Origin: Kipferlia bialata
Lineage: Eukaryota
DNA length: 39,932 bases
Assembly: GCA_003568945.1 (NCBI GenBank)
Contig: BDIP01000036.1
Location: 1-39,932 of the forward strand
Direction: 5' to 3'
Part shown: in pieces, positions 1-37,600 of the stretch
Numbering within the stretch: the stretch's first letter is position 1
How the letters are laid out: the number at the start of each line of letters is the position of its first letter
Translations under genes and position numbers: made by a program
The notes under the pieces: model-generated
The model's database searches: none
The model's input: the letters and a program-made list of their open reading frames with translations, nothing else
Told to the model about the DNA's origin: nothing

Positions 1-1398
1 CCCCTACCCAAGAGGTGGTACATGTCCTCACTCCTATGTACACTATGTACGAGCCCACTGGAAGAGCCATTACTCCACATAGGTATTGATGACAGTCGGC
101 CCAACTGTAGGTTCCAAAGATTGCTACACCGGAGAGTGACTCTACCAGCTCGTATGACCACCCTTTATCAGCAGAGAATGCAGTGTGGTAGTAACACCGT
201 CTTGGGCCATCCAAAGAGTCAGGGGAGACACCAAGTACTATGCGGTGCATCACCCCATTCACCGTGATCGCTTGGGTAGATGGAGCTCCTGTTTGTCAGT
301 TTCCAGTGTTTCACAAACCAGAAAGAACTCTGTTGGTACCTTTGCGTGTGGTAATGGGGCACCTATCCTGCTCTTCCCAGGTACCCTGGTGCCTCCTACC
401 GAAAGACCACCAAGGTCTCTTACCATGGGGATCATACAGCCATGTGTCACCATCATACCTAACCAATAGGATACGATGATCCAATCGAATCCAGACCTGT
501 TAGGGTGATGCCATATTCATAAGAAATCCATCGAAACATAGTTAGGCGTACATAAATGTGGCAACTGCTCTTCGGGAGCGCTGTACCTTTACGACCCGGA
601 ATGCAAGGTCAGCCGCCATCGTCAACTCCCTGAACTTATCTGAAGTTATCAGGCATGACAAGAGATAAAAGGGATACCACTGATGTCATTTCTATGCAGT
701 TGGTCTAACAAACTCTTCTAACCACATCAAAGACTCTCTTAAGGACTCCGGAAGACACTATAGTTGTAATAGTGATCTGTGACTAGAGGTCAGTCTCTTT
801 CTTACCTGTATCGAGTGAATACACCCCGATAGTGGATAAACAGTCCCTGGAACAGAGGTACGCCTGTAGAAGTCAGATATGAGCTAGCAATTTGACCTGT
901 AGATTCTAAGGGAGACTGTCCGTTGTAGACGCGTAATGGATACATGGACTTTACCTTGCCTCCTACAGATGCTGCAAAGTCTCTCAGAGTCAGGTTGTCC
1001 GAGTCACTGTCTCTCCACAGAAAGCTCCTCCTACGTCCACTCTTCGGAGCTGCAACTCGCTTAACCTCCATTCCCATACCCTCGCTGTCCACCGAACACT
1101 CTATCAGTCCTGCATGGTTGAGCAGTAACCCCCTCCCTACTCCTGTTGGAAAGAACCAGTCGTGCGGGTACTCACGACGCTCCATGATCCAGTCACATAG
1201 CTCAGTTGGAACCCGCCTCAGTTGCAGAACGGGAGGGACTCTGTTACGCACTGGCCTCATATCCCACTGATCTGCTTCCAGGTCTCTAAGCTTCAGGGGT
1301 TGGGGTGTCATGACGGACTGTAGGGCGAGGTCTCTGCGAATACTTGGAGAGACTGACGAGGTACCGACGGAGTTCGCATCCAATGTTGAGGGTTTCAA
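1..1398 (-). CDS. Hypothetical protein (multi-exon, runs off the left edge; exon structure and start unresolved)
   Basis: 198-aa ORF at 802-1398 ends at a strong donor (TACAG|GTAAG ~806). Further open minus-strand frames at 259-456 and ~1-255 (VMHRIVLGVSPDSLDGPRRCYYHTAFSADKGVVIRAGRV...). The region lacks intron-type microsatellites. No domain recognised, and I could not join the phases cleanly. Confidence 0.4.
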
Positions 1399-1842
1399 TT
1401 TGAGACCATCTCATGTACGCGGGTGGCGTCGCAATGCAAGTCGCATGAGGGCAACTGTTCAGCTGTCCCAGTCTCAACACGACACCCAGGACAATTGTCG
1501 TATAGGACTCACACCATTATTGTAGGGGTGAACTCCATTGCTTAAACAGTCCCAACAGATGTTGAACCATAAATGAACACATATAAACTAATCTATTATA
1601 CTGAATGGCGGACAAGTTGTTATCAATGACCGTCCAACACACACTCTACACCTCTCTCTGTCTCCCGCAGCCAGTAATGTGTATCAGAAACACCCACTTC
1701 CATCCCCCTATCCACACGGCCACTCATCGGTGACACCAAAGCACTCCTCCCCCCCCCCTCTCTCTCTTACTCCACGTTCAGATAACCACACCCAATGTGA
1801 TCCGAGTCCCAACTAATCATCTCACTTGTGACTAAACCTCAA

Positions 1843-1885: not shown

Positions 1886-4800
1886 TCACTCCATGTTGAG
1901 TGGGTCAAACCCATCTGACACCTCCCAGTCGCTGTCGTCAGACACACTCTCCCACGGCATCTCTGGGGTGAGGGGTGCATAAGAAACACATATTTTAATT
2001 ATGCCATCCAACACATATACATAGCTGAAGTATCCAATATCTACAGCAAAGACACATCCATATTCTGCAAACTAACATATACAATACTGGCGTCCCCCAT
2101 CCCAATTGTCATTGTGGTTGCTGTCAATACACGAAACACTGCAATATATGATCCAGTATCTACAACCATTAATAGTTAATCATTCATGTACTAAGTACCT
2201 GCGTCCCCCATCCCAATTGTCATTGTGGGTGCTGGTGTCCTCTGGGCAGACAGACCAGACAGGCCTGGGAACCCACCCAGCATGGACGCAAAGATGTCTG
2301 TGGTTAGTCCACAATACACCATTTAGAGGCTGTTCTAGAGATAGAATGAATGAAGTTATCACCAAGAACACATACATACACAACGAGAATAGTATGGATG
2401 GCACTATCAATACAAATACTGAATAGTGAGTTGTTGTAACACATGACTTCGCACCTGCGAATCTGGTCCCCCCATCTCCTGTGACCCCGTTGTCTGACTG
2501 GAGGAGGGAGAGCAGTCTGGTGCGGAGCTCAGGGGTCTGGGGGTCAGTGTGTACTGACAGATATAATAGTATTGGTATATACACAATGAACACACACCTG
2601 CATCCCTGTCAGTTATATCACCACTAAGAACTCCTATTCTCTCTCTCACACACGCACACATACATAAATACATACACACCTGCATCCCCGTGAGTGCCGC
2701 ACTCTGCTTGTCAAAGTCTTCAGACATGCGCCAGGCCTAGTGTGAGAGAGGTATACATTATTATACACTACGAGGTCAATGTAGCTAAAGAACACCAGGC
2801 TTAGGGTGGAAGAGGAGTTTCTTTTCATCTATAGAAGACCAACACGTAACCCCCCACCTGCTGGTAGCACGTGTCGGTTGACCCCTTCTCTATGAGTCTG
2901 TCGATCAGGACAGACCGGATGCGGATGCACCGACGCACAGTTCTAGGGGGTGAGGAGATAATCCAGGGATTATGTACCAGGCCCTATAATATGTGAACAC
3001 AAGTCCATACCTCATGCCCCTGAGTGTGGCTATGGGGCACTTGACCTCATATATATCTATATAACCAGAGCGATATACATACATATACATATATATGTAT
3101 ATACACATATATATACACCCACCTCATCCCCCTGAGTGTGGCTATGGGGCACTTGAACTTGGATGTGGCAGGGCCAGAGGCTAGCTGGAACTCAATGGAC
3201 ACCTGGGAGTGAGGAGTATAAATGTGGAGTGATTCCAAGTCAGGCTTCTGCCATAACTACAGACATACCCTGGGTGTCTTCCTGTCCTGCTGTCTCTCAG
3301 CCCTGGACACTGAGCGACTGAACACAAAGGGCAGGACAAGGTGGGCATGGCTGATATAAGACATAGAGACATCATCATACAACACAGCATATACAAGACA
3401 ATGGAAGACATGTTTGTAGGTGGGCATGGCTGATGTTGGAGAGGGACAGTCCTCTAGACACTAGTCAATCCATATAGGAATGCCTGTATGTATACTATGC
3501 CTCACCTCATGTCATCTGGTAGGAGTGTCAGCATCTCACACCTCACCCTGCCCATGGCTGAGGTGGCCCTGGAGGTAAGATACATAAACTGATATCATGT
3601 CTACCATATATACTACTATCCACCACACCTCGTAACCGCAGCCACCATCAGACACCCATTTCTTATATACATACATACATGTATATGTATAGTGATATAT
3701 ATGGGTACCTAGTCACGGCCGCCACCATGAGACACCCATTTCATATATATATGTATATATATATGATTCGGGTGAATACACAGTGAACAATATATATATA
3801 TATATATGTACATGTATATACCTTGTGACCGCCGCCACCATCAGACACCCATTTCATATATATATGTATATATATGATTCGTGGTGATCAACAATATATA
3901 TATCTATACATACATATATGTATATGTATATACCTAGTCACGGCCGCCACCATCAGACACCCATTTCATATATATATATGTATATATATGATTCGGATAT
4001 ATATATACACACATATGTATATACCTCGTAACCGCAGCCACCATGAGGCACCCGTCCCCCTTGAAGGCTGACCCATCAGCCAGTAGAGACATGTCCACAT
4101 GACCAACAGGCTGGACAAGGGAGATGCGAGAGATGAAGGGGGGCCTGGGATGAGACAATGCACATACCACTATCCATTACAGTATGTACTCTGAAGGGGG
4201 GGGGGGGGCTACAGGTTAGAATAGTGATGAAACAACACTAGGCTTTAGGACCTCAGTTGTATCACGGGAGGTATACAGTGTAATAATGATACCGACGTAC
4301 CTCCCACCCACACTGCGTGTGTATGCAAGGTCATACACTGCACTGGAGTTGGGGTGGAGGTAGGCCTGCTTGGAGGGACGGGCATAGCTGATGCGGCCGG
4401 AGGGGTCTGGGGGAGTGAGGAGGGCATTAATACACTGGAACACAAGTGATATATAGATACTCTTGTCGTCACAATCAGCCTCACCCTGCTTCAGGAATGG
4501 CTCCCCAGGTCTGTAGATGGCAGGAAGGGCAAAGACCGTCAGAAGGGCCTTGGGGTTAGTACAACACGCACATACATATGCATACACTGAGAAGTTGTAA
4601 TGCTACTTCATATACCTCGTGCAGTGGGTATCTGGGGAATGCCTGGGGCTTGTCGTTCTTGGTGGCATAGAGGTAGTGGCCCCTGGACCTGGCCTTGGCC
4701 TATGGGGTCAGTGGTATTATATGCACACGTATACTATCCTGAGAGCTATAGTATAGATGTATACATATATCAGTATACTACCTTGATAGTACCAGCCTTG

Positions 4801-6841
4801 CACCCCGGGACACACCTCTCCAGCATGTCCACAAACTGAGAGGACGCTCTGCCATCAAGAGAGACAGACTCGGGGGTGGTCTCCTAATATTAATGGGTAT
4901 GAGTATATGACTATCTAGTGGGAGAGAGAGAGACACGGCCATCGAGGGATACATACTTGACGGTGGTCTCCTGATGGTTGAGACAGAAGTAATGGCATTG
5001 TAGAGCGTATATAGGTACAACATATGTACAATAGACAGGGTAATCTAGGGAGACAGACTCGGGGGTCTCCTATACAATGAGTCATTAGATATACTGGTAC
5101 ATATAAGTGAATCACACACACTATAAATACAGGTGCATGATACCTATGACACCAACACCCACAAAACAGTATATATACAAGTATATATACACAAAAAATG
5201 TACCCCCATACCTGTGCCTGATACCTCCTTGCCACTGCCTTCTTGTCATTCAACATGGGGATCACAGACTCACTCTGACATTAGTATAGAGAGTATAAGT
5301 AAGTAATAAGTACGATACATCAAACTAGAATGTATAGAGATAGGTATGTCATTCAACATGAGGATCACATACTCACTCTGAAGGGTTAGGGTATGTCCCA
5401 AGAAAGAGAGAAGTCCAATTATGACATCTTCTAGTGAATAGTAGTTGCGCAGAGTACTTCCGACTTAGAGTGTCAGTGCCTCACCCTGACGAGCATACAT
5501 GTCTCTAGGTTACTGGCAGCTATCAGGACCTCCAGGGCCAGGGCGTGGTTGTAGGCTGGGGTCAGGTATAACTGTATAGTGTGATAATGGTTAGTGCGTG
5601 GTTGAAGGCTAGTTAGAGGAATACGCGTGGTAACACTTAACGGTTAGTGTTATGAATGATACTCACAGTCTGTGCCTGGTCCCTCCCCCATTGTGATGTA
5701 CTGCTGGGTGGTCTGCACGGTGGCTGGGTCAAGGCCTGGGGTGAGTGAACGATTTTGTATTCTTTTGTATTGTGGCGACTACTGATTCCAAGATGAGACA
5801 CGGAAATATATTGAGAATGGCCCCGAGACTGACTGGAGACAGGACAGGAGTTGTGATTAGAATGAATGATAATCCTATATCTCACATTACTTTGACGTTC
5901 AACAATAGAACAACAGTACCTGGCAGATCTAGCAGTGTGCTCCCCTGGCCGTGCATGGCAGTGTCACCTGGGGTTAAGAAGGATATATACTATTTCATAC
6001 ATGATGCTAGAGAGAAATGCGAGTCATGTGCCTCCTATCTATACCTGCCCCTCTCTCCCTTGTCTGCCTTGGCAGGTGGGGCATGTTGTCCAGGCACTCC
6101 TGCACCTGCAGCCTGGGTTACTACCGATCACTAGACATATAGCACACACTGATACTACTGGTGTATTCATACTAATAGTTGATACATACGAATACCGACT
6201 CACCTGACTGCCTCGTTGATCTCCTCCACCTCCTCAGGGACATCCTGAGGTGAGACATATATCAAAAAATATTATGAAAGGAGGAATATTGTCCAGGCAG
6301 TGAGATATCGTTTAACTATTGTACAGGAATAGACGTAATAATGGTAGAGGTCTATCTCATAGACATATCCCCCTCACCTCCTCCTCCTCCCCTGGTCCCT
6401 CAGAGACCTCGAGGTCCTCGGGGGTCAGCATCTGGGGTAAGGTAGAGAGGAACACAACACACACGTCAGCCGACCACAATAGCGATTGTGTACCCATGTG
6501 CCCTCCCACCTTGATGTTGGAGCCCAGTTCCTCCTCTTCACTCTCCTCCTCCTCTTCCTCTGCCTCCTCCTCTGACACATCATCTATCCAGTGGGGGTCA
6601 TCCCCAACAGGGGTCTGGATTAGCGTATTGTATAAACAGAGAGAGAGAGAGGGAGAGAGAGGAACATCATCTATCCAGTGGGGATTGTCGCCAACGGGGT
6701 CTAGGGCAAGCGTAATATATATACGTAGGGTAAGTGTAATATATACATATATATATATATAGAGAGAGAGAGGGAGAGAGAGAGATAGATCGAGTCTATC
6801 CAGTGGGGGTCATCGCCAACAGGGGCCTAGGGTAAGTGTAT

Positions 6842-6878
<37 letters not shown>

Positions 6879-9482
6879 TATGATCCTGTCCAGTGGGGGT
6901 CGTCACCAACAGGGGTCTAGGGTTAATGTCTACTATATGTATATATGACCTCACACACATATAGGCATTGCCCTACCTCCTCCTCCCCTGCCTGCTCCTG
7001 TGCCACTATCCTGACAATGTCCAGTCTATCACCCATCTTCCTAGGATTAGAGTATTATACTGGTGAATATATTAGAGCGAATAATTAATCTATATATGGT
7101 AAATAATGTCGATTAGAGTCACATAGTATACATGGTTGAATTCAGAGACACTGATGGAATAGATATTGAATGACGTAGAGTGTGGGGTATGTATATATGT
7201 TGAGTATATACCTAGCCTTCTCGTGATTATCCCCATATTGCATATTGTATACATGGTATGGTATAAGGTATTTCATATTATGCGTTACAGATACGCACAC
7301 CTCGCCATCTCGTGCTTGGGGGGTCTAGGGATTCTCTGATCCGGCTGTGCTACTCTCAACCATATATATATATACATATATATATGTATGTATATATATT
7401 ATACGTATCAACATCTATACCTCGCCATCTCGTGCTTGGGAGGCCTAGGTGTTAGGCCATATCGGGACAGAGACCACAGCACATCCAGGACTGGGGGTGG
7501 GTTCGGAGGCATATGATGATAATTCAGATCCCTAAGCGAATAATAACACATGCCACATATACATCCTATCAACAATATGTATAAACACACACATACATAC
7601 AAAGACTCACCCAGGTCATCCAGGTCCCTCAGCTTGAACTGACTCAGCCACTGGTCTGGCTGGTCTAGCCACTGGAACTCGGCCTGGGTTTACACTCAAC
7701 TAAGATACAAATAGGAACACATTATTAGTATTTATCATATCAGAGTCTATCAGGCACAACCACATACCTCTGGGGACACCCCACTAGCCCCACTGGTCTG
7801 GCCCCCAAGGGTACCTGCCCCATGCTGTCTGGGGGGTGAGGGGTATATGAATACATATGTGTACATACATACATGAATATATATGGTACCAGAGCATACA
7901 ATATTATGAATTGACTCCCACCTGTTTCTGAGCCAGAACACATATGCGTTGTACCCGGCTATGCTGTCAGACCGGGTGCACAGGGCATATCTGGGGTGGG
8001 ACTGTATGGATAGTGATGCAATTGAGAGTGTGATTACATTAAGCTTGAATGATGGAGCACAATTGTTGTATATGACACATGTCTTTAGTCGTGTATGAGT
8101 AACCTTGGACCGTGGTTTACGGAACACACATCTCCATTCTCATACCTCCTGAGTGCCCTGAGGCTTGTGGGTGCCACTGTCTGGGGGGTCTTGATAGGAC
8201 TGCCCCTGGGGGGTGAGAGGGAGCATTAGTAGTGGTTATATTGATGACAAAACACACGAGAAAGACACGGTTCATGTAGAGACTCTGTACCCTACCTAGA
8301 TGCCAGTGCTGCCAGTATGACTGCCTCCTGGGGGATGCCTAGGGGGGTGAGGCAGAGAGAAGTGTATACTCGGTATAATGGAAATACACTGATAATTCTC
8401 TGGATACACGCCTAGGGGGTTAGGGAGAGAGTAGTAACTATAGCTACAATGTAAACACACTGATACACACTGGATAAACACCTACGCATAGTCCCAGGTA
8501 CACCAAGTACACTCTGATACACAATGGTAGTTCTTCCCAAGTATATAATGTACCCACCTAGGCATAGTCCCAGATACACCATGAGACTGCCAATAATACA
8601 ATTAAAAGATATGCATTACTATAATACATTCACACCTAGGCATAGTCCCAGATACACCATGAGACTGCCAGATAGGGACAGAGGCAGGTGTGTGGCCAGG
8701 GTGCCCAGGGGTGTACGGGTGTAGGTGTCACCTAGGGCCTTGATGAAGCCTGGGGGTGGGAAGGCAGAATATACTCTACATTCACACATATCTCACTATG
8801 TCATGAGGATACTAACAGTACACATATATATGATCCACGTATATATAATTATTACTATACCCACCCATGTTGTTGAGCATGATGACTGCATTCCTCAGGC
8901 TGTTGAGACTGGGTCTGTCCGGCACATGCTGAAGAAGGTCGAGGGGGTCGGTGCCTGAGGTCAGGACAGTGCCTGGTAATCCACTGTATGTTTACTCATT
9001 CCATATGGCATATAATGCTAACAGCTTGTTCCCACATGTACACCCACCTGTCCTGAGGTTGAGTGTCCTGAGGATGGTCTCTGTGAGTGACACCCTCTGG
9101 ATCTCCGGGACAGGGCGCTGGTGCATGGCAGAGTGGAAGGTGACCTAGGAGTTAGACAGGGTACGTAGCAGGAAAATGATTGACAAACTGGTGTACTATA
9201 TCTCTGAAGTGAATTAATATATATGTATAGTGACTGTACCTGTGGCACCAGCCTGACACACTCAGCATACATGCATATCTTCAACGTATATATTTCCTAT
9301 ATAATACTCAGCCTGATTACACACAGTTCATACGGATTCTGGTGCAGAGACCAAACTAATATGAAGTGTTTAAAACATAGTACAACCCTACCAACCAACG
9401 CACCTGTGGCACCAGCCTGACACACACTGCGGGTCCCATCCTGCCCACCCGGCCAGACCTCTGTCGGCAGGCATCCTGATAC

Positions 9483-9532
<50 letters not shown>

Positions 9533-12500
9533 AATATGAAATGGTAGCAGTTCATACCTGCGACGCATAGACTGTGACCAGCTCATCTATCTTGGTGGAC
9601 TCGTTGTATCTGAGCTCGTTGACCACACATGTGTCTATGCTGTACAGGACAGCGGGTAGGGTGATGGAGGACTCAGCGATGTTGGTGGCTAGCACGACCT
9701 AACGGTAAGAACACATATAACCCGGCAAGCGGTAGGAAACGTGCGCTACCAAAAGTCTCATATCATGTATGCACCTTGAATGCCCCGTCCTGGGGTCTCT
9801 CCAGTGCACGGGTCTGCTCTGGAGGTCAGTGTCAAAGTCATTACGTATAGACTCCATCTATGTGTAAAATAACGTATGTGTAAAATAACGTACGTGTAAA
9901 ATAACGTATGTGTAAAATACCGTATGTGTAAAATAACGTAATATATCCATATACACCTGCCGGTGGCACTGAGGAGTGCAGGATGCATATGTCAAACAGA
10001 CGGGCAGGGACGTATCTCGCGTTTCTGCGCCTCTGGTAGCCCCTGGGGGTGAGAGGGGAGAATATCAAGTCTCGTACAAACCTATAGACACATAGTAGAT
10101 CAACAATATGTACCTCAGTATGAACCCCTCTGTGTCTTCCAGCATCGCCTGTATGCCATGGATCTGGGCAAGGCCCGGCAGGAACACAATGCAGCTTGGG
10201 GTGAGAGAGTAACCTGTTTCTACCAGATTCCAAGTATAAATATGTTTTATCATACCCGAAGTGCTTGTCCAGCAGTCTGTGCATCTGTCTCCTGGTGACA
10301 CAGGGGAGGGGGACCTATTGGTGACATGGTATGCATGATATGGATTTATACGCTTCAGAGTATCATCGGGGAGAGGGACCAGGGGGGAGAACGGCAACGT
10401 ATATATATACAATTAACTGAGTGACATATCCCATACATGCATACTTCTCTCTGCACCTTGACTATAAATACATATGCATACACTCTTTACATCTATACAT
10501 GGGTGAGTATACATATCCTGTACCTGCCTCCTCTGCATCTTGAATATATATATACATACAATATATACTATACTATATACATACATATCCCATACCTGCC
10601 TCCTCTGCATCTTGACCAGCATGGACACTAGAATACATGTATACTATATAATATATACTATACCATATACATATATATATATATCCCATACCTGCCTCCT
10701 CTGCATCTTGACCAGCATGGACACAAGCATCCGAAGGGCAGCAGATGTCACCTGGGGTTAGACATGAATTGGAGTATGATGCTCTGATCCATATAACGCT
10801 ATGTACGTATAAATATACCTGAGTTGGCTGCTGCATGTTGCCAAGGGGTGCATTGGGGTATGTGTTGTTCTTGGGTGCACTGTCTATGGCATAGGGGGCA
10901 TAGTGGTGGCCACGGAAGGTACAGGGACGCCTGGGTGAGATGGAGGTGGATACTAACAGGAATGTACATACTCTTGTCAATTAAAGGAATATGGAGAGTA
11001 ATGAGTGAGATACCCTATAACTATATCCACTCACTTTGGGAAGTGGTTGTAGAGCTCCGCGCACTCGTCTGTGTCCAGATAGACCATCCTGACAGGGTGC
11101 ATCTGTTGAGAGATACTCACAGTGGGGAGGGAGTCCTGCACAGCGTGGTCACCACCCTTAGGGTCAGAGAGGGGTAAAACACCGCGTAATAATATGTATG
11201 TGTTACGTACCCTGAACCCTGCAGGCTGTGTGGCGTTGCTTGGTGCATAAAGTCTAGCCAGGGAGTCCTTGGGAGGGGTGGCAGACATCAGTACAACCCT
11301 GGGGGGTGAGGAATAACCCCAGGATTATAGACCATACACATACTAAGACTATTAGTCACTCATAATTCTTACGGGTAGTGAGACTGTACAGCACCTGAGT
11401 GTGGGCATGACTGAGAGTAGCAGCTTGAGCAGGGCCAGACACAGATCGGTCTCAATACCCCTCTCATGGACCTGGGGTAAGGCAATAGTCCGCGTAAAAA
11501 TCACAACTTCACAGAGCAGATATGTATATGAATATATGTATTTAGTACACCTCATCCACCACCACAATGTCAAAGGGCTCACCTCTACCTCTCTCTCTAT
11601 ATCTATCTATATATACATATCATGTATATATATACACACATATGTATACCTCATCCACCAATACATACACACACACACATACACACACATATATATATAT
11701 ATACACTCTATACCTCATCCACCACTACAATGTCAAATGGCTCATCCGCTGTGGAGGTGGCACTGGTGGAGCCCTCGCCTGGGGGTGAGCTGCATACTGT
11801 AACACTGCTAATATATGGCATACCTAGCAGTGCTATGGGGACAGTGCCGAGGACAGGTAGTTCTGCATAGATAGATACATCAAATACCCTCTATATACTA
11901 TAATAACACACTGTATACCTAATGGGGCCCTAGGTGAGAGAGCTGAGGACAGATAGTTCTGCAGCATCCCGCATGTCATGAAGGTGATACAGGTGGAGGG
12001 GCCACGCTTCTTGTGCTGACCGATGTGGTAGCCAACGGTCTCGCCAACCTGGCGTGAGGTGGAGAGAATACATATAAGGCACACATAAATGAATAGAAAG
12101 AAGTATTATAGTAATAATATATATAATATTATCCAATTCACACAATATGGAGAGTGAGGGAGAGATAGAGGGCAGTATACAATACCTGGCACCCTATCTG
12201 CTCTGCCACTCTGTTGGCCAAGAGGACAGCAGCCAGACGCCTCTGCTGGGCTACGAGGATACGGGCCTGGGGTGATATATAGGAATACATGTATATATAT
12301 ACTACAATTTATTCTTTGATATTTTGAAGATACACCATCAGGTGTATACTCACCTTGTTCTGGGATGCATCGAGCAGGTACACTGGCACTTGGGTACTCT
12401 TGCCTGTGTCAGTATCAGTGTCGGTATCTGAGAATAGTACTTAGGTACTAGGCCCTAGTATCAGTATCCCTTGCCTGACCCAGTCACCCCACTGATCAGA

Positions 12501-15500
12501 CACACCCTGCTGCCAGCCACGGTCCGCAGGATCTGAGTATGAATAGGTGTATATACAGACATATAGATATACATACTATATGTATACTATACATATACAC
12601 TGATCAGACACACCCTGCTGCCAGCCACGGTCTGCAGGATTTGGGGGTGAGTGTATGTATATATATATAGAGAGAGAGAACGTATATACTGGTGATCTAA
12701 CAACCCCCATACCTCGAGTCTGTGCTGTGCGATGGGCAGTCTCTCAGCGGCATATCGGGCCTGACAGGGTGAGTGGAACACAACGAGATATAGAGATAAA
12801 TATATAGATAACGGAAGAGACAACATACCTGAATAGGATTCGAAATTAACATGTTAAACACCTGTATACATAAATGTATAACCCACCTCCTTGACCCTCT
12901 TTATGCACTCTTCCACTGCTGCTGTCAAGGGTACTCTATCCCCAGACAAGGCACGCACGGCAAGGCCTGGGGGGTGAATGATAGTGGTAACTAGTATAAT
13001 ATAAAACACAATACTAATATATACTATATGTATACACTCCAGAGCACGCATATCATGACCCAGGCGATAGTGTACTTTGTACCCCACTACTCAGATATAT
13101 ACGAGTACCCCCGTACCCATGTCACTGGTTGTGCTTGGTGCATCGTGTAGCTGTGTGGTTGTGCCCACCCTGACCCAGGGACACTGGGCACCCGAGGCCC
13201 TGGGGTCACTCTGAGTATATATATGTATAAGTAATCACTTAATGATATAATCAGATACCCTGTTAACTAGTATTGCCATGCACCCACCTGACGAAAGGGT
13301 TATTGTCACTGGGCACTCTGACATAGACCACCACAAACACAAGCATGTAGGGCTGGGGGTGAGTATGATATGGATGCGGAGAATACTACATAGCCACTGA
13401 CTCTCACTGCTACATAGGCATGTCTTCTCTATCACCCTGCCACTCTTCCAGTAGCAATATCAGCGTCATAACAGATTATAGATATTGACATCGGTATCCT
13501 CCCTCACCTTCCTGCCACTCTTCCTGAGTCCCTCTAGCTCTGCTGTCTCTGCGGCACTCCTGCCAATGACCATCTTGGAGGAGGGAGGGGTGGCTGGGGG
13601 TCAGGGGTGTGCAGACACTAATAGTGAATCAGTATAGTATATGTATTGATACGATAATAGATGTCACCATACCCAGTGGCACCAAGTGGTACTGGATGGT
13701 GTTGGGTGGCAGCTTGGGCAGGAAGGAGAACATCACACGGCCCAGGACCTGGGGGTCAGAGCTCTAATTACGCCGAGGTATAATAAATAAATAAATTAAA
13801 AAAAAGAAACACCTATATATTGAGTGATGATATAGATAGATACATAATCAGTATCTACAGCTGTACCCACCTGTCCGACCAAGTCTCTCTCGTGGGTGGA
13901 CAGGAACACACCTGGAGATGAATATAGGGATAGGTAAATACAGTATACACCAGTAATACATATGTATAAGAAGATGGTCTCTCTCGTGGGTGGACAGGAA
14001 CACCCAGGGCGTAGGGTGCATGAGAGTATAGTGCAAATGGAAGGGAAAGCAACCACAGTAAGACAGACAATACTAGGCGTGTGTACCTGTTGCCCTCATT
14101 GTACTGTCATTCACTCCATAGAGCAGTACCCCACCGGCAGTGTTGACAAAGGAGGACAGGGTGCGGCTGGAGGGTAAGACAACATCAATGTATATCACTG
14201 TATTGCATATACTAGTATATATATATGAACCTGATATCATAGGCTAAGTCCTTCTCCACGTTCTGTATGGGCTCGTCCCTCCTCCTCATCTCCTTGAACT
14301 CCACAGAGGGGGACTCCTGGAGGGGGATCTGGGGTTAGAACTGAATGAGACATATATGAGGGTATAACCATGTGATATCATGTACATTGAACTCTATGGA
14401 CTCTTGGAGAGGGATCTGATTGTGAGAGAAACATTCATGTACTGTATACAACTGAGCATCCTCTAAAATAGATATATATATTGAATTCACTACATATACT
14501 AATATGAAATGAAATATGAATGGATATATCCAAGTAATCCCACCTCTGAGTCCAGATAGAGAGTCTTCTCTCCAGACAATATTGACCTGGGGGTGAGGGG
14601 TAGGGGGGATAGGTGGTTGTAGGATAGAGAGTATAGTACTAATATATTAAGACAAGTATACCTCAGTGCCTCGAGCATGTCTGGTGTGGCCGAGTATGAT
14701 ATACACACATATATATATAGGTATATATCATATTATAGACATATTACTATTATATACCTGAGTGCCTCGTGCATGTCTGGTGTGGCCGAGCAGGATGTCT
14801 TCTATCACACAAATATATATTAAACATATATGTATATATCTATCACTAAGCACATCTATCACTAATGTATACACTATACACATATACTTACCTCAGCGCC
14901 TCGTGCATGTCTGGTGTGGCCGAGCAGGATGGCTCCAGGTACAGACCATCACTCGAGATGGACTGAGGTGGGAGGGAGAGAAATAGGGGGGGGAGATATA
15001 TATATGTCAAAGGCAGATGGACTGGGGTGAGAGAAATAATATATATAGAGAGAGTGGGGTGATGAAGAGAGAGGCAGGGAGAGATATATATGTCAACTTG
15101 ACATGGACTGGGGTGAGAGAGGGGAAGGAAAACAAAGAGAGAGAGAGAGAGGGAAAGAGAAAGCTGGCTAACTCAATCCAACACCAACTTTCAGAGAATA
15201 CCAATCACACCAGTCCAGTCAACAACAATACGTATACATACATTCATATAATACCCCATGTATATATTCACCCAGGATAGGTACACATTCAGTCACAGAA
15301 CACTCCCTATATACACATGTCACACGGACACCAATGCTAACCTCACCACTACCTGTCTACTTGTTCCACGACACTCGGAGACCAGTCATTAACACACACA
15401 CCCAGACCACAAACCATGTATACTTATGTACGTATATATATGTGAGTGTATGTATAGGTATAACCACCTTGCCTATCTGGGGTATGTGTCTGAACAGTCC

Positions 15501-15578
15501 CTGCAGCTCCAGAGGCTGGGCAGTGTCAACCCCATCTACTTGGGCACTGGACACACTGGTACCACCCTCTCCCGTCAT
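1886..15578 (-). CDS. Schlafen/AlbA_2 domain fused to a DExH-box (DEAH/RHA family) RNA helicase; ~50 short exons
   Basis: Hand-spliced exons give: start MTGEGGTSVSS (ATG 15578); AlbA_2 motifs ESPSVEFKE (exon 14231-14328), SSFVNTAGGVLLYGVND (14087-14166), WVRVGTTT (13117-13199); LPIAQHR; Walker A GVTGSGKSTQVP (~12380-12495); Ia QQRRLAA; VGYHIG; II VVDE|VHER (~11714/11470); III MSAT; IV VFLPG; ILHSS; V ATNIAESSITLP (~9660-9700); VI QRSGRVGR (~9440-9470); PEIQR, TPLG..LP and SD (WH/HA2 region); YLHPNS (OB-fold); ends ...GFDPLNME* (TGA 1886-1888). Confidence 0.9.
3627..4055 (-). repeat. Five copies of an exon 3' end plus donor (GCLMVAAVTR|GT) separated by AT-rich spacers
   Basis: Copies at ~3627-3660, 3706-3740, 3820-3855 and 3932-3965, plus the true exon end at ~4023-4055. 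Confidence 0.9.
6580..6920 (-). repeat. Four copies of acceptor plus exon 5' end (AG|TPVGDDPHW) separated by (CT)n/(AT)n
   Basis: Plus-strand motif TCCAGTGGGG..CCAACAGGGG recurs at ~6587, 6674, 6799 and 6889. Confidence 0.9.
9859..9940 (+). repeat. Intronic 16-bp minisatellite (TATGTGTAAAATAACG) x5
   Basis: Five near-perfect tandem units are directly visible. Confidence 0.9.
13117..14328 (-). other. Schlafen/AlbA_2 (putative RNase) domain-encoding exons within the helicase gene
   Basis: Phase-compatible exons give IPLQESPSVEFKEMRRRDEPIQNVEKDLAYDISRTLSSFVNTAGGVLLYGVNDSTMRATGVFLSTHERDLVGQVLGRVMFSFLPKLP...YMLVFVVVYVRVPSDNNPFVRASGAQCPWVRVGTTT. This matches the E-x4-EFK, (S/A)F(A/V)NT-x-GG-x-L-x-x-GV-x-D and terminal (Y/W)xRxG(S/T)xT pattern of AlbA_2/Schlafen core domains. 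Confidence 0.88.
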
Positions 15579-31649: not shown

Positions 31650-34600
31650 ATGTTGCGTGTTCTTGTATGCCTCTGCCTCTGTGTGGTGTGTGTGTGTGAT
31701 GGGTTCACTGTGAGTGGCAACAGAGTGCAGTATGACACAGTGTACATGGACATGGAAGCACTGACAGAGGGCACTGACGCCACTGTTCCGTATCTACTGT
31801 ATCGCACAGCCGCCCCTGCTCTGCGGGGTAGCACTGTGGACCTAGGGGCTGACACCGTGGCAGGGCCATACTTCAGTGCAGGGGCCATAGAGGAGGAGGA
31901 AGGTGAGTCAGGGTGGATATGGCAATACTGAGCTGGTGTTGTGTGGTTTGTGTGTTATATTTGACTCTCTGCCAAGTGTCTGGGCATTAGGGGGATGTTT
32001 GACTGAGAGTGACCGACTGACGTCTTGATTTCTATTTGTCTCACTTATCCCATCTCCTCATCTGTTTCGGGATAAAAGACAGTTCCACACATAACCCACT
32101 AGTGCTAGATGATGTCACAGGTGCCGAATTGGATGTTATACCACACTCCTCTCTTCTCTATATATTGTGTGGCCCCTACACGCAACAGCCGTACACGCAA
32201 TGATCCCTCTCTTATGCTCAGGCTCCTTCTCCCTCCCTCTGTATGCCCATGCTTCCTGGCTATCCGAGGCTGGTGTGTACGTAGGCACCCTCCCCGTGTC
32301 CTCTCTTACCTCTACCCCACTGATCCTGGCTGGGGATGTGTCAGAGGACCCACCTGTTGCAGCAGTGTCTGTGTGTGAGGCAGAGGGTATAGAGGGGGTG
32401 GATGGTATGCAATGCCTAGATGGTAGTGCAGTGCTATTGCTAGCAGACCTCAGAGATGGGGTAGCGGACGCAGAGAGAGGTCTCTCGGGCATGGCATACC
32501 AGAGCAACAGGTATCTATATACACATACAATGTACTCATATACCATATATAGTCTGCATGTGTGTCTGACCCACCCCAGCTGCTCTGCCGAGGTAGCCAT
32601 GCTTGACCCCCTCACTGAGCACACCCAGATAGTAGCCTTCACCCCCTGTGGCCCCACCTGTGGCACAGCGGGGTTCCTCTTCATAGTAGACGGTACCCTG
32701 GAGGACGCCTCTCTCTACTCAGCTGCCACCTACCCAGACGTGGCCCCCCATGCCATCTTCTCATTTGTATCTGTCGATAGCTCTAGTGAGAGTACACCCC
32801 AAGGTCTAGCCTGGCAGAGATCGTCAGCCCTGGGGTGCGTGGATGTGACTGAGGCTGACTCTGTGCCCCTTAGGGTGTATGACACTACACTGTCCCTAGA
32901 CTCCGCTGGTACTGGGGTATTCCCTTCCCTTATGGTGCAGAGTCTGGTTGCTACGGCTGCAGGGGGCACTGTAGGAGATGTATCTGTGTCCAGACACTCC
33001 TACACAACCTACGATGCCCAAAGTGAGGGAGAGTACTACACTACAACTGTACAGGATTTGCCATTAGCAGGTGGTCTCTTTGAGTCTGAGGCGAGAGATG
33101 ACCGGTACTCAGAGCTCCATCTTACTCGGTCTGTGACAAACTCTGCCGCTACCGAGTACACATGGTTCCTGACCTGTGACACTGACCCAGACACCTCAGA
33201 CCCAACCCTCAGAGCTGTCCCCTTCCTCACATCTGACCTGGCCACTCCTGCAGCCCCAGCTCTCTCTCTCCCTGATGTATCTGGTGTATGTGATGGGTAC
33301 ACGCTATACATGTGGACATCACTTGTCACAGTAGCAGCAGGGGTAGATACATCGAGTGGGAGTAACATCCCATACTTGATTCTGAGAGTTGGCGATGGCA
33401 CTGGTCTAGCCTCTGCGGCCTCGTCTCCTGTCTACCTATCATCCTCTAGCGTATACTCTGCACTCCTTGGCCTCTCAGAGGATGACTCTACAGTGTTCAG
33501 TATGCCTCTGGAGGCTGACGATGCGATCACTCTCCAGTCTGCATCCTTTGGTGGCTTCTGCACGCTGACAGCCGGGTCCACCCTATGGGCTCTGGTGTAC
33601 GACACCACTGCATCAGAAGCTACAGACTACACAGTTGCTGTCAATACCTACAGTCCCTCCCTATTGGTCTCAAGGGACGCTCTTGATGTCTCTTTCTACC
33701 CCTCTGTCACAGTTGTGGAGCAAGGGACATACTCACAGCATTCCGCGGTGATAATTCAGATGGTTGGAAGCATTAACCTACTCGATGACTCTGCTGTTAG
33801 TGTCACACTCACCGTCGGGGATTCCGACGTGTCACAAGCTGTGACTAACACGGAGTACTCCTCCACATACCCGTGGTCTCTGGATGTAGTATCCGTACCA
33901 GCAGCAAATACCCTTCCAGTTGCTGTCTTAGTCTCTGTACAGGTCGCAGAGTCCTTGACCAGTGACTCTCTCTCTGTCACCGTCCCCTCTAGTGTATGGA
34001 CTGTGGTGGATAGTGATGAGGCCCTCAACCCATACTCCCTGCCTCTTCGCCTAGACACTGCCATCATCGACCTCTACACAATCCCGGACAGTGGTGTCGA
34101 TGTCACTACTCTCTCCGCCAGTGTCACTCTCTATGGCTGGTGTGGTGTCATTGACACTGCCTCTGACCTGAGTCTGACACTATTAGTAGAGGGGGAGTAC
34201 TCAATAGCAGACTCACTCGATGCCCCCTACTCTTCAGTTGTGTTTGGTACAGACCCCAGTGCACATACCTCATGCTACAGCGGGAGTATGCTGACTGTGC
34301 TCACTGTAGAGTGTCCCACAGATACTGTCTGTGCCTCCAGTGGATACTCCACCACATACCCCGTGCCTGTGCTGGGGAGTGTGGTAGCTGTGAGTGACAT
34401 AGAGGTAGATAGTGCCACAGCTGGTGCTGACGCTGCCTCTCCTAATGTGAGAGTGACACCTATCCTATCTGTGGAGGGTCCTGACTCAGTCTTCTATAGT
34501 ATGGGTGTACCCGTGCTTCCGTCCTCTTCTGTCCACGCTACTGTGCCACTAGTCGACGAGACAGCGGATGTCTACACACTGACAGATGGGGATGCTGCCC

Positions 34601-37600
34601 AGTACATACAGTACACCGGGGACCTGGGGGACACACCTTCCTTCACATCATGCACCTTCACTGCGGTGTATGACACTCTTGAGTATACGTCAGAGCCTGT
34701 AGGCCTAGCCGGTGACCAGGCAATAGCCATGTATATTGGGTCATCTGTTGAGGACACTGAGGCCCAAAACATCAACCCTTCCTCCACCTACGCCGCAACT
34801 GCAGTTGCACTCACGTCTGACCCTGTTGTTGAAGCCCTCTCTGTTGCACTCAGTGATGACTCTGCTATAGACATCGCAGTGGGTGAGGACTCAGGGAGTG
34901 GGTCTGAGAATGCCAACGTTTGTCACACATCGAGTAGCTACGCGTTGTCAATGCCAGACTTTAGTAACTACTATCCCGTTGTTCCTGAACTTGCGCCACA
35001 GTATATACCCTCTCCCTTTGTGGCTGACATATCGCTACCCAAGGCTCTCGTGGATATGGAAGAAGTACTACCGGAGACACTGACGTTCAGTCTCTCTGGC
35101 TACCCTCAGGACCCTCTCGTCCTAACAGACACTGGCTTCACTGACTCTCTGTACACATACGCAGCTGACACTACCGCGCTAGGCACTCTTCTGGGTGTAC
35201 TTGAGAGTGTACAGTGTGGCAGAGTGTATGACGCTGCACTCACCACTGACTCTCTTTCCCTGGACCCACCCTTGGTACTACCACTCACTGTCACTGAGGC
35301 TGCTCTACCCAGTAACGCCCTCACTGATCCAGTGTTCACACACAACCTGCCATCTCTGCTACCCCCTGCTACCTTACTGGACATCAGTCTCTCTGGGGTG
35401 TACACTGCAGACGGTGATGATAAGGACCAGACCCTGTGCTGCTCTGCAATATCATTACACGTTAGCACATCCACGTCTGAGTCCCTGTTCTCCGAGGACG
35501 CTGTGACAAGTAGCCTGACATTTGTGGATGGGGTCCCCTTCCAGCAGTGTGTGATGCAGGTGGACACATCTCAGTTCCCCGTCTTCTCCGAGGCAATCTT
35601 CGAGTACGACACTGGCGTCACCACCTATCTAACCACCGCCATCTCCCTCCTTGTGTCAGTGCCCTCCCTCAAGTACTATATGATGGCCACTGCCGCCCTA
35701 TCTGTCCTTGTGTTCTGTACCCAGACCACGTCCTACTGCTGCTCATGCTGCTGCTCGTGTAGAAAGACTAGGAGAAAGGCAGGAAGGCCCAGGGGTAACA
35801 GAAGGGTCAGTATGGCAGCTGTTAGCATGTGCGGCAGGTGCTGTGGGTGGATGGGAATCACAATCTCCATGCTCTTCTTTGTAGTGTTCATCTTTGGTGT
35901 AAAGATGCTTGTGCTAGGTGGAGACTTCTTCGTCTTTCAGCGACTCTTCTCCCACCTTAGAGTGCGGGAGACACCCGACCTGTTGTATGAACTACCCCTC
36001 GTGTCATACTCGTTTGAGTTTGCCAGACAGTTGGACGCGTTCTTCGACAATGTGCAGTACACGCTGCTCCAGTCAGAGCAGATCAACCTCTACCTCTCCC
36101 TAGGAGTGGTGCCTGTGATTCTTGCCCTGCTACTACTCTTCAAGGTTGGGTTTCAGATACAAAGCTCTCCGCATAAGTGTATATCTTTGCCCCTAATTTC
36201 CAGGTGATCCTGCTACTTGTTAAGGCGCAAGACAGGTGGAATGGCAACCTGTTTGTGCTGCTGTGCATCCTCTTCCTGCTGCGTCTGTTGACCGAGGCCT
36301 CAGAGCTGTGTGCCACCTTTGTCTCTGATCTCATCCTGTGGGTCATGAGTGGGGGCACAGAGGGACTGGGGGACGTACCTGCTGCACTTCCCATATGTCT
36401 CTTCATAGCACTGGGCCTGCCCCTAGTATCCCTACTAGCCATGGCCACACATGAGAAACTGCCGTTTAGGTTGGTTGCTAGCACAAGTGAATATCAGTCG
36501 TTGGCACTGTTACCTCGATATTGTGTGGGAATTTATAAGTTGGACGCCATATTCTGCTAATTACTAGGTCTCTCCTTGGTCTAAAGGAGGGCGAGTCATA
36601 CTGGCGAGCCCCACATCTAATGGCTTCCTTCAACTGGCTAGCCGAGCAGTTCGCTGACATGCGTGACTACAACCCATGCGACTGTGGTGGTGGAACAGAG
36701 CTTGGAGAGTCACTTATGGAGTGGGCGACTGACACTCTTCCCAGGAAGATTGGATCCATTCTCATGTTCAGTGTCTGGGTGTGGCTCTCCCCTGTGGTAT
36801 GGGGTGGATGCATCTACTTCTACTATGACTTCGTGTCCAACACAAACTGGGATGGTATTCCCTACGTTTGGGAGTTCGTTCTTGGACTCGCCGCTCTCGC
36901 TGTAGTAATGTACATCGGAAGTTACATAGCTGGCCTTCCCAACGAGGCACAGCGCAGACATTTACGGGAGAATCCACATCTGAAATGGAAGTCTCCTTGG
37001 AGGAAGGCGTTGAAGGCTGCAGCAATCACACTCTGTCTGCCAGGGTGGCTGTGTGTTGTGTTCCTGGTGTTCTCCGTGTTAGTCCTTGTCATGGTCACTG
37101 CTGTCCTTGGTAGCATCCCACTAATGATAATGGGCCCCGTAATCCTGTTTTTCGTAGGCCTAGCAATCTACCTCATCTGGTTAGGGATCTGTCTCATCAT
37201 TGGTCAGATACTAATATCTGCCGCTTTCTTGTGGGTGTTTTGCTCCCTAGTGGGCTTCTGCCTTCTCCCTGCTGGTACCGTGCTGCACACTATCATACCC
37301 ACTGTCAGTCTCATGCTGGGGATAGTGCCGCGGAAGCTGAGGTAGGGCAATCACGTTATGATACGCCAGCTAGAGTTCTTGCCCAATATTGCATTGTACA
37401 ACGTTCTCACCGCAGGAACCGAGTTGTCGCTATCCTGACCCAACTCGTTCTCAACCTTGGTGTGCTTGCCACTATCGTGTACTTTGCATACCTGGAGGTG
37501 CTGCGCATCATTGAGCTTGGAGAGATCGACATCGCCACTCCCTTCATAGTTCTGTGCTTCCTGGCTCTTATAGTGCTGGTGGACACAATCTACACGATGA

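What the first reader, a model, noticed from the sequence alone, without database searches (positions are those of the whole stretch)
1886..15578. Schlafen/AlbA_2 nuclease domain fused to a DEAH/RHA (SF2) RNA helicase in a protist: candidate undescribed RNA-cleaving defence or silencing enzyme
Seen: phase-compatible exons join an AlbA_2/Schlafen core to a full DExH helicase with WH/HA2/OB regions, through a short linker (...DMGLAVRALSGDRVPLTAAVEECIKRVKEARYAAERLPIAQHRLE...) with no stop. This is invisible in the ORF track because it is split over ~50 micro-exons. Known: mammalian SLFN11/13/14 cleave tRNA/rRNA and carry an SF1-type helicase, not a DEAH/RHA one; nematode Schlafen-domain proteins (the PUCH complex) process piRNA precursors. 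Inference: this could be an independently assembled sensor/translocase plus RNase protein acting in antiviral or transposon defence, or in small-RNA biogenesis. I do not know a described protein with this architecture, but I cannot search for one.
Basis: partly seen in the sequence, partly recalled or inferred. Interest (0 to 1): 0.9.

Follow-up and report, generated by a model that had tools for sequence, protein, structure and literature searches.

The report
Schlafen nuclease fused to Spindle-E-type helicase
A spliced 59-exon protist gene joins a Schlafen RNA-cutting domain to an RNA helicase of the Spindle-E lineage, and relatives with the same fusion in several oxygen-avoiding protists form one family that likely cuts RNA in genome defence and that I did not find described in print.

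Summary
A 59-exon model (15578-1886, minus strand) gives 1522 aa without an internal stop. One spliced contig of a probable RNA run crosses all 14 introns laid, from the Schlafen exons into the helicase. The gene is Kipferlia bialata KIPB_000317; the deposited model skips the two Walker A exons around a GC-AG intron, which the contig retains. SLFN_AlbA_2 passes Pfam's cut-off and keeps the E-x4-E-x-K catalytic motif. New here: 11 of the 150 best-scoring 50%-identity clusters carry the same fusion (Kipferlia twice, Carpediemonas, two Skoliomonas-type genomes, Mastigamoeba, four unnamed). On the helicase core alone they form one clade (98/92) inside the TDRD9/Spindle-E/DExH8 group (100/99), with no Tudor or CCCH hit. 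Best reading: an ATP-driven RNA motor feeding RNA to its own Schlafen nuclease in small-RNA-type genome defence (0.45); rivals are tRNA-cleaving shut-off (0.3) and housekeeping processing (0.2). No activity, substrate or Argonaute/PIWI partner was tested. Ten literature searches showed no description.

The parts
1886..15578 (-). Whole gene, 59 exons, 1522 aa (Kipferlia bialata KIPB_000317, GIQ79645.1, corrected by two exons)
14544..15578 (-). Exons 1-3, N-terminal leader (aa 1-75), not conserved in the family
   Evidence: the contig's loose end matches the end of exon 2
14231..14328 (-). Schlafen exon with the catalytic motif E80-x4-E85-x-K87 (ESPSVEFK)
   Evidence: family profile aligns it with ESTHVEFK of SLFN14
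14087..14166 (-). Schlafen box exon: SSFVN (SAFAN-like), GG, and GVND with D128
13117..13911 (-). Rest of the single-lobe Schlafen/AlbA_2 domain (about aa 135-251, five exons)
   Evidence: homologue domain fold matches SLFN12, SAMD9, SLFN11
12713..12966 (-). Linker, two exons (aa 252-294), spliced in frame between nuclease and helicase
   Evidence: joints 12965/13116, 12759/12886, 12532/12713
12354..12532 (-). Walker A exons 12532-12475 and 12403-12354 (GVTGSGKS), missing from the deposited protein
12404..12474 (-). 71-nt GC-AG intron splitting Walker A
   Evidence: 71-nt skip, 8 letters of ambiguity; GCAAGG donor keeps the frame
11035..12266 (-). Rest of RecA1: QQRR (337), GYHIG (363), DEVH (421), MSAT (452)
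9404..10930 (-). RecA2: VFLPG, LHSS, TNIAES (670), QRSGRVGR (717)
7421..9144 (-). Winged-helix and ratchet-like (HA2) region, with family-conserved RSD..A..NAY..W
   Evidence: no Pfam HA2 hit on this protein
6204..7040 (-). Acidic insertion (aa 962-1050), low confidence in the homologue's model
2858..5967 (-). Predicted OB-fold and C-terminal helicase region; no Tudor or CCCH hit
   Evidence: (OB_NTP_bind 0.96, embedding only)

Best explanation
This is one protein in which a Schlafen domain with an intact catalytic motif is joined to a DEAH-box helicase of the Spindle-E/TDRD9/DExH8 group, and it likely works as a motor-fed RNA endonuclease in small-RNA-type defence against transposons or viruses. 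Shown: one spliced transcript across the junction, the motifs, the family and its place in the tree. Inferred from DEAH/RHA family knowledge (recalled): the helicase loads on a single-stranded 3' end and moves 3' to 5' with ATP, pulling RNA out of a duplex or a protein complex. Inferred from characterised Schlafen domains: E80, E85 and K87 (with D128) bind a divalent metal and cut RNA leaving a 5' phosphate, as PUCH does; because the domain is single-lobed, two copies, or this protein and its paralogue KIPB_004998, would probably have to pair. Inferred from the Spindle-E kinship: the RNA handled is a silencing target or small-RNA precursor, so that one chain does the remodelling that Spindle-E does and the end-cutting that PUCH does.
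For: Spliced contig across 14 of 14 introns laid. SLFN_AlbA_2 above cut-off in this protein and in 10 of 29 next-best clusters scanned. E-x4-E-x-K present in 10 of 11 distinct family proteins by pattern and in the eleventh (P0014, EGQYFELK) by eye; helicase motifs I, Ia, II, III, V in 11 of 11, motif VI in 10 of 11. The family profile finds SLFN8/13, 14, 12, 11, SAMD9 and SLFN5 at E 7.5e-15 to 9.4e-7 with the motif in register. E(x)4(D/E)xK is the nuclease motif of SLFN-pAgo and the E-D-K triad of Cash (passages). Tree on 563 helicase-core columns, Schlafen domain left out: fusion clade 98/92, inside TDRD9+Spn-E+DExH8 100/99, apart from DHX29/30/36/57/YTHDC2 (same grouping with 277 rows). Best PDB sequence hit is Spindle-E, 9nhs, which is part of a PIWI-piRNA-target complex (passage). 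A single-fold Schlafen nuclease makes piRNA 5' ends in C. elegans (passages).
Against: The nearest named relatives in the tree are plant DExH8 and a fungal protein (99/98), not TDRD9 itself, and I found no paper giving DExH8 a silencing role. No Tudor domain, which TDRD9/Spn-E carry. DHX29 scores as well as Spindle-E in the PDB sequence search (157.9 against 158.6 bits), and Foldseek's top 50 for the homologue model lists DHX29, DHX36 and others, not Spindle-E. Argonaute/PIWI could not be checked in any host genome (no genome held); newly sequenced diplomonads, relatives of Kipferlia, gave no Dicer or Argonaute (passage). Most characterised Schlafen domains cut tRNA rather than precursors.
Confidence: 0.45

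Rival explanations
1. A sensor-effector of cell-autonomous immunity: the helicase recognises foreign or aberrant RNA, pairs or oligomerises, and switches on the Schlafen domain, which cuts tRNA and shuts translation down, as SLFN11, SAMD9, Cash and SLFN-pAgo do with other sensor modules.
For: Schlafen domains recur with unrelated NTPase sensors and cut tRNA (passages); bacterial AlbA_2 domains are enriched near defence systems (section read). The family is patchy, divergent and duplicated in three genomes.
Against: The helicase sits in the Spindle-E group, not with DHX9/30/36-type helicases. No tRNA substrate or trigger was tested.
Confidence: 0.3
2. A housekeeping RNA-processing or quality-control enzyme (rRNA or tRNA maturation, decay of stalled or faulty RNA) in anaerobic protists, with no role in defence.
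For: It is transcribed in the one run held. The sister group takes on varied RNA-related domains: CCCH fingers in plants, and RING, CCCH and a BMT5-like rRNA methyltransferase in P0286, so the lineage is not tied to silencing.
Against: Only 26-30% identity between members over the alignment and a patchy range are unusual for core processing; both parent families are best known from defence.
Confidence: 0.2
3. The Schlafen domain is a non-catalytic RNA-binding module on an ordinary Spindle-E-like helicase, or the fusion is a gene-model artefact.
For: Several Schlafen domains lack activity (passage). The Pfam match covers only profile positions 1-70 of 118.
Against: The catalytic motif is invariant across the family while flanking sequence is not; a spliced contig bridges the junction; independent gene models in five named genomes give the same fusion.
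Confidence: 0.05

Closest known systems
Spindle-E / TDRD9 (animal piRNA helicase; PDB 9nhs)
   Same: DEAH/RHA core in the same well-supported group (100/99); best PDB sequence hit; the Mastigamoeba member is annotated 'tdrd9-like' by its source.
   Different: No Tudor domain; N-terminal Schlafen domain instead; lies in the DExH8 half of the group; no PIWI partner shown.
Plant DExH8 (CCCH-finger DExH helicase)
   Same: Nearest named clade on the helicase core (99/98 together with one Bifiguratus protein); shares the GYHIG motif.
   Different: DExH8 carries CCCH fingers and no Schlafen domain; I found no paper on its function.
Mammalian SLFN11/13/14
   Same: N-terminal Schlafen nuclease with E-x4-E-x-K and SAFAN-like box, followed by a helicase-type ATPase.
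   Different: Two-lobed nuclease and an SF1 helicase there (passage); one lobe and an SF2 DEAH helicase here.
PUCH (C. elegans TOFU-1, TOFU-2, SLFL-3/4)
   Same: Single Schlafen fold per chain; a small-RNA pathway context is the working hypothesis here.
   Different: PUCH is a trimer of separate subunits and the paper's main text has no occurrence of 'helicase'; piRNA processing is shown there and untested here.
SAMD9/9L, Avs9, Cash, SLFN-pAgo
   Same: Single AlbA_2 effector fused to a sensor or NTPase module.
   Different: Their partners are STAND, Csx15 or GHKL-pAgo modules; none is a DEAH helicase.

Membership tests
Schlafen/AlbA_2 domain (PF04326) | Pfam score above the gathering cut-off | tested here: met
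   29.5 bits against 25.3; 33.8-47.8 bits in 10 relatives
Schlafen/AlbA_2 domain (PF04326) | Catalytic motif E-x4-(D/E)-x-K and SAFAN-like box | tested here: met
   E80, E85, K87; SSFVN 112-116; D128; in register with SLFN14 and SLFN8/13; motif definition
Schlafen/AlbA_2 domain (PF04326) | Schlafen fold | tested here: inconclusive
   Folded for the homologue P0004 only, pLDDT 55.7; top five matches all SLFN/SAMD9, Z 7.4-8.3, rmsd 3.3-4.1, 107-140 aligned
Schlafen/AlbA_2 domain (PF04326) | Metal-dependent RNA cleavage | not testable with these tools
   needs an assay
DEAH/RHA helicases (SF2) | Motifs I, Ia, II (DExH), III (SAT), V, VI (QRxGRxGR) | tested here: met
   GSGKS 312, QQRR 337, DEVH 421, MSAT 452, TNIAES 670, QRSGRVGR 717; Walker A exons spliced in
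DEAH/RHA helicases (SF2) | C-terminal WH, ratchet (HA2) and OB domains | tested here: inconclusive
   No Pfam HA2 or OB hit; sequence alignment to solved DEAH helicases reaches aa 860-918 of P0001; embedding search OB_NTP_bind 0.96; homologue model aligns with DHX36 over about 1050 columns, TM 0.73 by target
TDRD9/Spindle-E/DExH8 helicase group | Helicase core falls within the group | tested here: met
   100/99 in IQ-TREE LG+C20+F+G4, 46 rows; 99 in FastTree, 277 rows
TDRD9/Spindle-E proper | Tudor domain | tested here: not met
   No TUDOR hit in the window's protein or 10 fusion relatives; 61-63 bits in 3 controls
TDRD9/Spindle-E proper | Works with PIWI proteins in piRNA amplification | not testable with these tools
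   no host genome held
Plant DExH8 | CCCH zinc fingers | tested here: not met
   none; present in control P0199
Mammalian long SLFN proteins | Two-lobed Schlafen core plus SF1 helicase | tested here: not met
   one AlbA_2 stretch, SF2 DEAH motifs; SLFN8/12/14 give two profile matches each
PUCH / SLFL proteins | Trimer of separate single-fold subunits that cuts piRNA precursors | not testable with these tools
   architecture differs (helicase fusion); activity untested

The most novel reading that the evidence does not exclude
An old eukaryotic family, kept in metamonads and an archamoeba, in which the Spindle-E-lineage motor and a PUCH-like Schlafen nuclease are one chain that makes or amplifies small RNAs: a protist small-RNA biogenesis machine that links Schlafen nucleases to the piRNA helicase lineage far outside animals, possibly as a heterodimer of the two paralogues seen in three genomes.
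Probability: 0.3. Interest if true: 0.9.

Novelty: new variant of a known kind. Interest (0 to 1): 0.75.

Why it matters
Eukaryotic Schlafen nucleases are known mostly from animals, and how they are switched on and aimed is an open question. This family pairs the nuclease with a third, unrelated motor type and places it in the helicase lineage of the piRNA pathway, in single-celled eukaryotes far from animals. It gives a single polypeptide in which coupling between RNA translocation and Schlafen cleavage can be assayed, a lead on what the Spindle-E/DExH8 group did before animals, and a correction: the public protein lacks Walker A only because a GC-AG intron was missed.

Tried and rejected
No whole genome is held for this window, so Argonaute, PIWI, Dicer and RdRP could not be sought. 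The run search listed one run, not on record as RNA; only 11705-14625 was laid, so the 3' introns are not checked against transcript. A word-based search with aa 65-300 found only the protein itself among 2799 candidates, and a word-based profile search listed no further fusion among its best 120; neither recovered the known relatives, so both are insensitive here. A metagenome scan kept 80 loci of 373 relatives from a quarter of the collection; 0 of 80 had a Schlafen match in six frames. A two-copy complex prediction of aa 66-250 gave no answer (score 0.00, alignment not used). An AU test did not reject a clade of the nine non-Mastigamoeba-branch rows (p 0.108), so transfer between anaerobes versus vertical descent is undecided. 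Earlier findings of this scan: nothing relevant. An ATPase-dead reading suggested by the deposited protein was rejected because the contig keeps both Walker A exons. An extra 24-nt exon at 8411-8388 that I tried was left out, where the frame reads through without it. Nine other ORFs of the window gave no Pfam match above cut-off.
Full report
Observation. The minus strand of 1886-15578 holds short GC-rich exons between AT-rich introns. A model built from splice sites and frame alone has 59 exons, 4569 nt and 1522 codons with the only stop at the end; 57 of 58 introns are GT-AG and one is GC-AG, exon GC is 0.59 and intron GC 0.39. A search with one exon returned the deposited protein of this locus, Kipferlia bialata KIPB_000317, GIQ79645.1, 1486 aa. 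It equals my model with 0 mismatches apart from aa 295-330, which it lacks.

One transcript. The run search listed one run, RNA by guess. Laid on 11705-14625, a single 4635-nt contig of depth 45.5 skips 14 of 14 modelled introns, from exon 3 through all Schlafen exons, both linker exons and the helicase up to the DE of DEVH. Thirteen joints read GT-AG; the fourteenth is a 71-nt skip with 8 letters of ambiguity, which fits a GC-AG intron at 12474-12404. The two exons around it encode Walker A (GVTGSGKS), so the protein has a complete ATPase site and the public record is mis-predicted. Contig positions are offset from my CDS by a constant 28 nt and the contig is 66 nt longer than the CDS, which fits the full model. 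The tool warns that a contig across two genes shows no single transcript; here the splicing is in frame and no stop intervenes.

Domains. Pfam gives SLFN_AlbA_2 at aa 80-160 above cut-off (29.5 against 25.3) and Helicase_C. An embedding search of aa 65-260 returned AlbA_2 clusters in all of the ten best named hits. The motif E80-x4-E85-x-K87, the box SSFVN and D128 are present. E(x)4(D/E)xK is given as the nuclease motif shared by SLFN-pAgo and mammalian SLFNs (10.64898/2026.05.29.728809, passages), and the E17-D22-K24 triad of Cash has the same spacing and is needed for tRNA cleavage (PMC13462974, passages). A profile of eight relatives' domains finds SLFN8/13, 14, 12, 11, SAMD9 and SLFN5 with these residues in register. 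A low-confidence model of a relative's domain (pLDDT 55.7) has SLFN12, SAMD9, SLFN11 and SLFN5 entries as its five best matches, Z 7.4-8.3. All DEAH motifs are intact in the corrected model. HA2 and OB have no Pfam hit on this protein; aa 1075-1400 of P0001 scores 0.96 against OB_NTP_bind clusters, and a model of the GEM-RC1 relative (pLDDT 71.3) aligns with DHX36 and DHX29 over about 1050 columns.

A family. A full HMMER search with aa 70-860 listed 150 clusters at 50% identity. Of ranks 2-30, 10 of 29 carry SLFN_AlbA_2 above cut-off together with DEAD and Helicase_C; eight of them are ranks 2-9. A home-made profile run over all 301 stored proteins found the domain only in these, the window's protein and three members of the same clusters, one of them a truncated weak match. 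Named members: a second Kipferlia gene (KIPB_004998), Carpediemonas membranifera KAG9396191, Eukaryota sp. GEM-RC1 KAL0246594 (plus a fragment without its N-terminus, KAL0232864), Eukaryota sp. TZLM3-RCL KAL0228408 and KAL0222367, and Mastigamoeba balamuthi, whose source calls it 'tdrd9-like'; four clusters are unnamed. GEM-RC and TZLM3-RCL are Skoliomonas strains, free-living metamonads (PMC11316075, passages; matching GEM-RC1 to GEM-RC is my inference). That Kipferlia and Carpediemonas are fornicate metamonads and Mastigamoeba an archamoeba is recalled. Only the best 150 of 19408 hits were seen, so the range is a lower bound. E-x4-E-x-K is kept in all 11 distinct proteins examined, and motif VI is missing only from the Mastigamoeba model.

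Which helicase. Trees were built on the helicase core without the Schlafen domain. With 277 rows (FastTree; four rows left out as duplicates, truncated or superseded by my model, and proteins covering under 70% of the core profile dropped) the fusions form one branch inside a group with TDRD9, Spindle-E and DExH8. With 46 chosen rows (IQ-TREE, LG+C20+F+G4, 563 columns) the 11 fusion rows and the fragment are one clade (98/92), joined by DExH8 and a Bifiguratus protein (99/98), and these join TDRD9/Spn-E (100/99), apart from DHX29, 30, 36, 57 and YTHDC2. The fusion therefore likely arose once. Against: the nearest named clade is DExH8, not TDRD9; branches are long; DHX29 ties with Spindle-E in the PDB sequence search; Foldseek's top 50 does not list Spindle-E. 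No Tudor or CCCH domain is found, while controls show them. Whether Mastigamoeba got the gene by descent or transfer is undecided (p-AU 0.108).

Mechanism. Shown: one chain, intact nuclease and ATPase motifs, conserved pairing. Inferred: the DEAH motor moves 3' to 5' on single-stranded RNA (family knowledge, recalled) and presents RNA to a metal-dependent Schlafen site. Single-lobe Schlafen domains work by pairing, in SLFN-pAgo and in PUCH (PMC10567574, passages), so pairing is likely here; three genomes hold two paralogues. I favour a small-RNA-type defence role (0.45) because Spindle-E acts on PIWI-piRNA-target complexes (10.64898/2025.12.12.693873, passages; PMC12147562, passages) and PUCH shows a Schlafen nuclease making small-RNA ends. 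A tRNA-cleaving shut-off (0.3) follows most characterised Schlafen domains (PMC12680541, passages and section 7). Housekeeping processing (0.2) remains because the sister group takes on varied RNA domains. Argonaute/PIWI in the host genomes could not be checked; some diplomonads gave none (PMC11437800, passages).

Literature. Ten searches showed no paper on this architecture. 'schlafen' with 'TDRD9' gave 4 papers, seen as listings only and none on the topic by title and abstract start; of 429 papers the 20 listed had no occurrence of 'schlafen'. The library lacks most subscription papers. I read no supplements; the AlbA_2 tree files of PMC12680541 could include these proteins as unlabelled tips. 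Earlier findings of this scan gave nothing relevant.

Verdict. A real, transcribed, conserved Schlafen-DEAH fusion of the Spindle-E/DExH8 group, apparently undescribed. Both parts and the logic of nuclease plus NTPase are known, so it is a new variant of a known kind; function is untested. Interest 0.75.

Noticed in passing
window 1963-14891, introns of this gene (e.g. 14891-14587, 12712-12533, 10691-10315, 8635-8339, 6976-6615, 4024-3569): 14 of 58 introns hold an exact copy of 14-35 nt of an adjacent exon, often its end with the splice site, against 0 of 290 comparisons with non-adjacent exons. Suggests frequent local duplication across exon-intron borders; in the part laid, the contig uses only the modelled sites.
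   Followed up: partly
window 12404-12474: GC-AG intron missed by the deposited annotation, which drops Walker A; other genes of this genome may be mis-predicted the same way.
   Followed up: yes
P0286 (cluster of P0018, unnamed metagenome proteins): A DExH8-related helicase fused to RING, CCCH fingers and a BMT5-like rRNA methyltransferase domain (95.9 bits).
   Followed up: no
window 32113-36207 (+): Intron-free ORF of 1364 codons with a predicted-looking membrane segment near its end, followed by further long hydrophobic ORFs to 38070, in an otherwise intron-dense genome; no Pfam match.
   Followed up: partly
window 802-1410 (-): Open frame of 202 codons just downstream of the gene, no Pfam match.
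   Followed up: partly
P0012, P0025, P0022, P0101, P0121: Tudor-less helicases of the TDRD9 half of the tree in a green alga, a dinoflagellate and unnamed sources: the Spindle-E lineage is wider than animals.
   Followed up: partly
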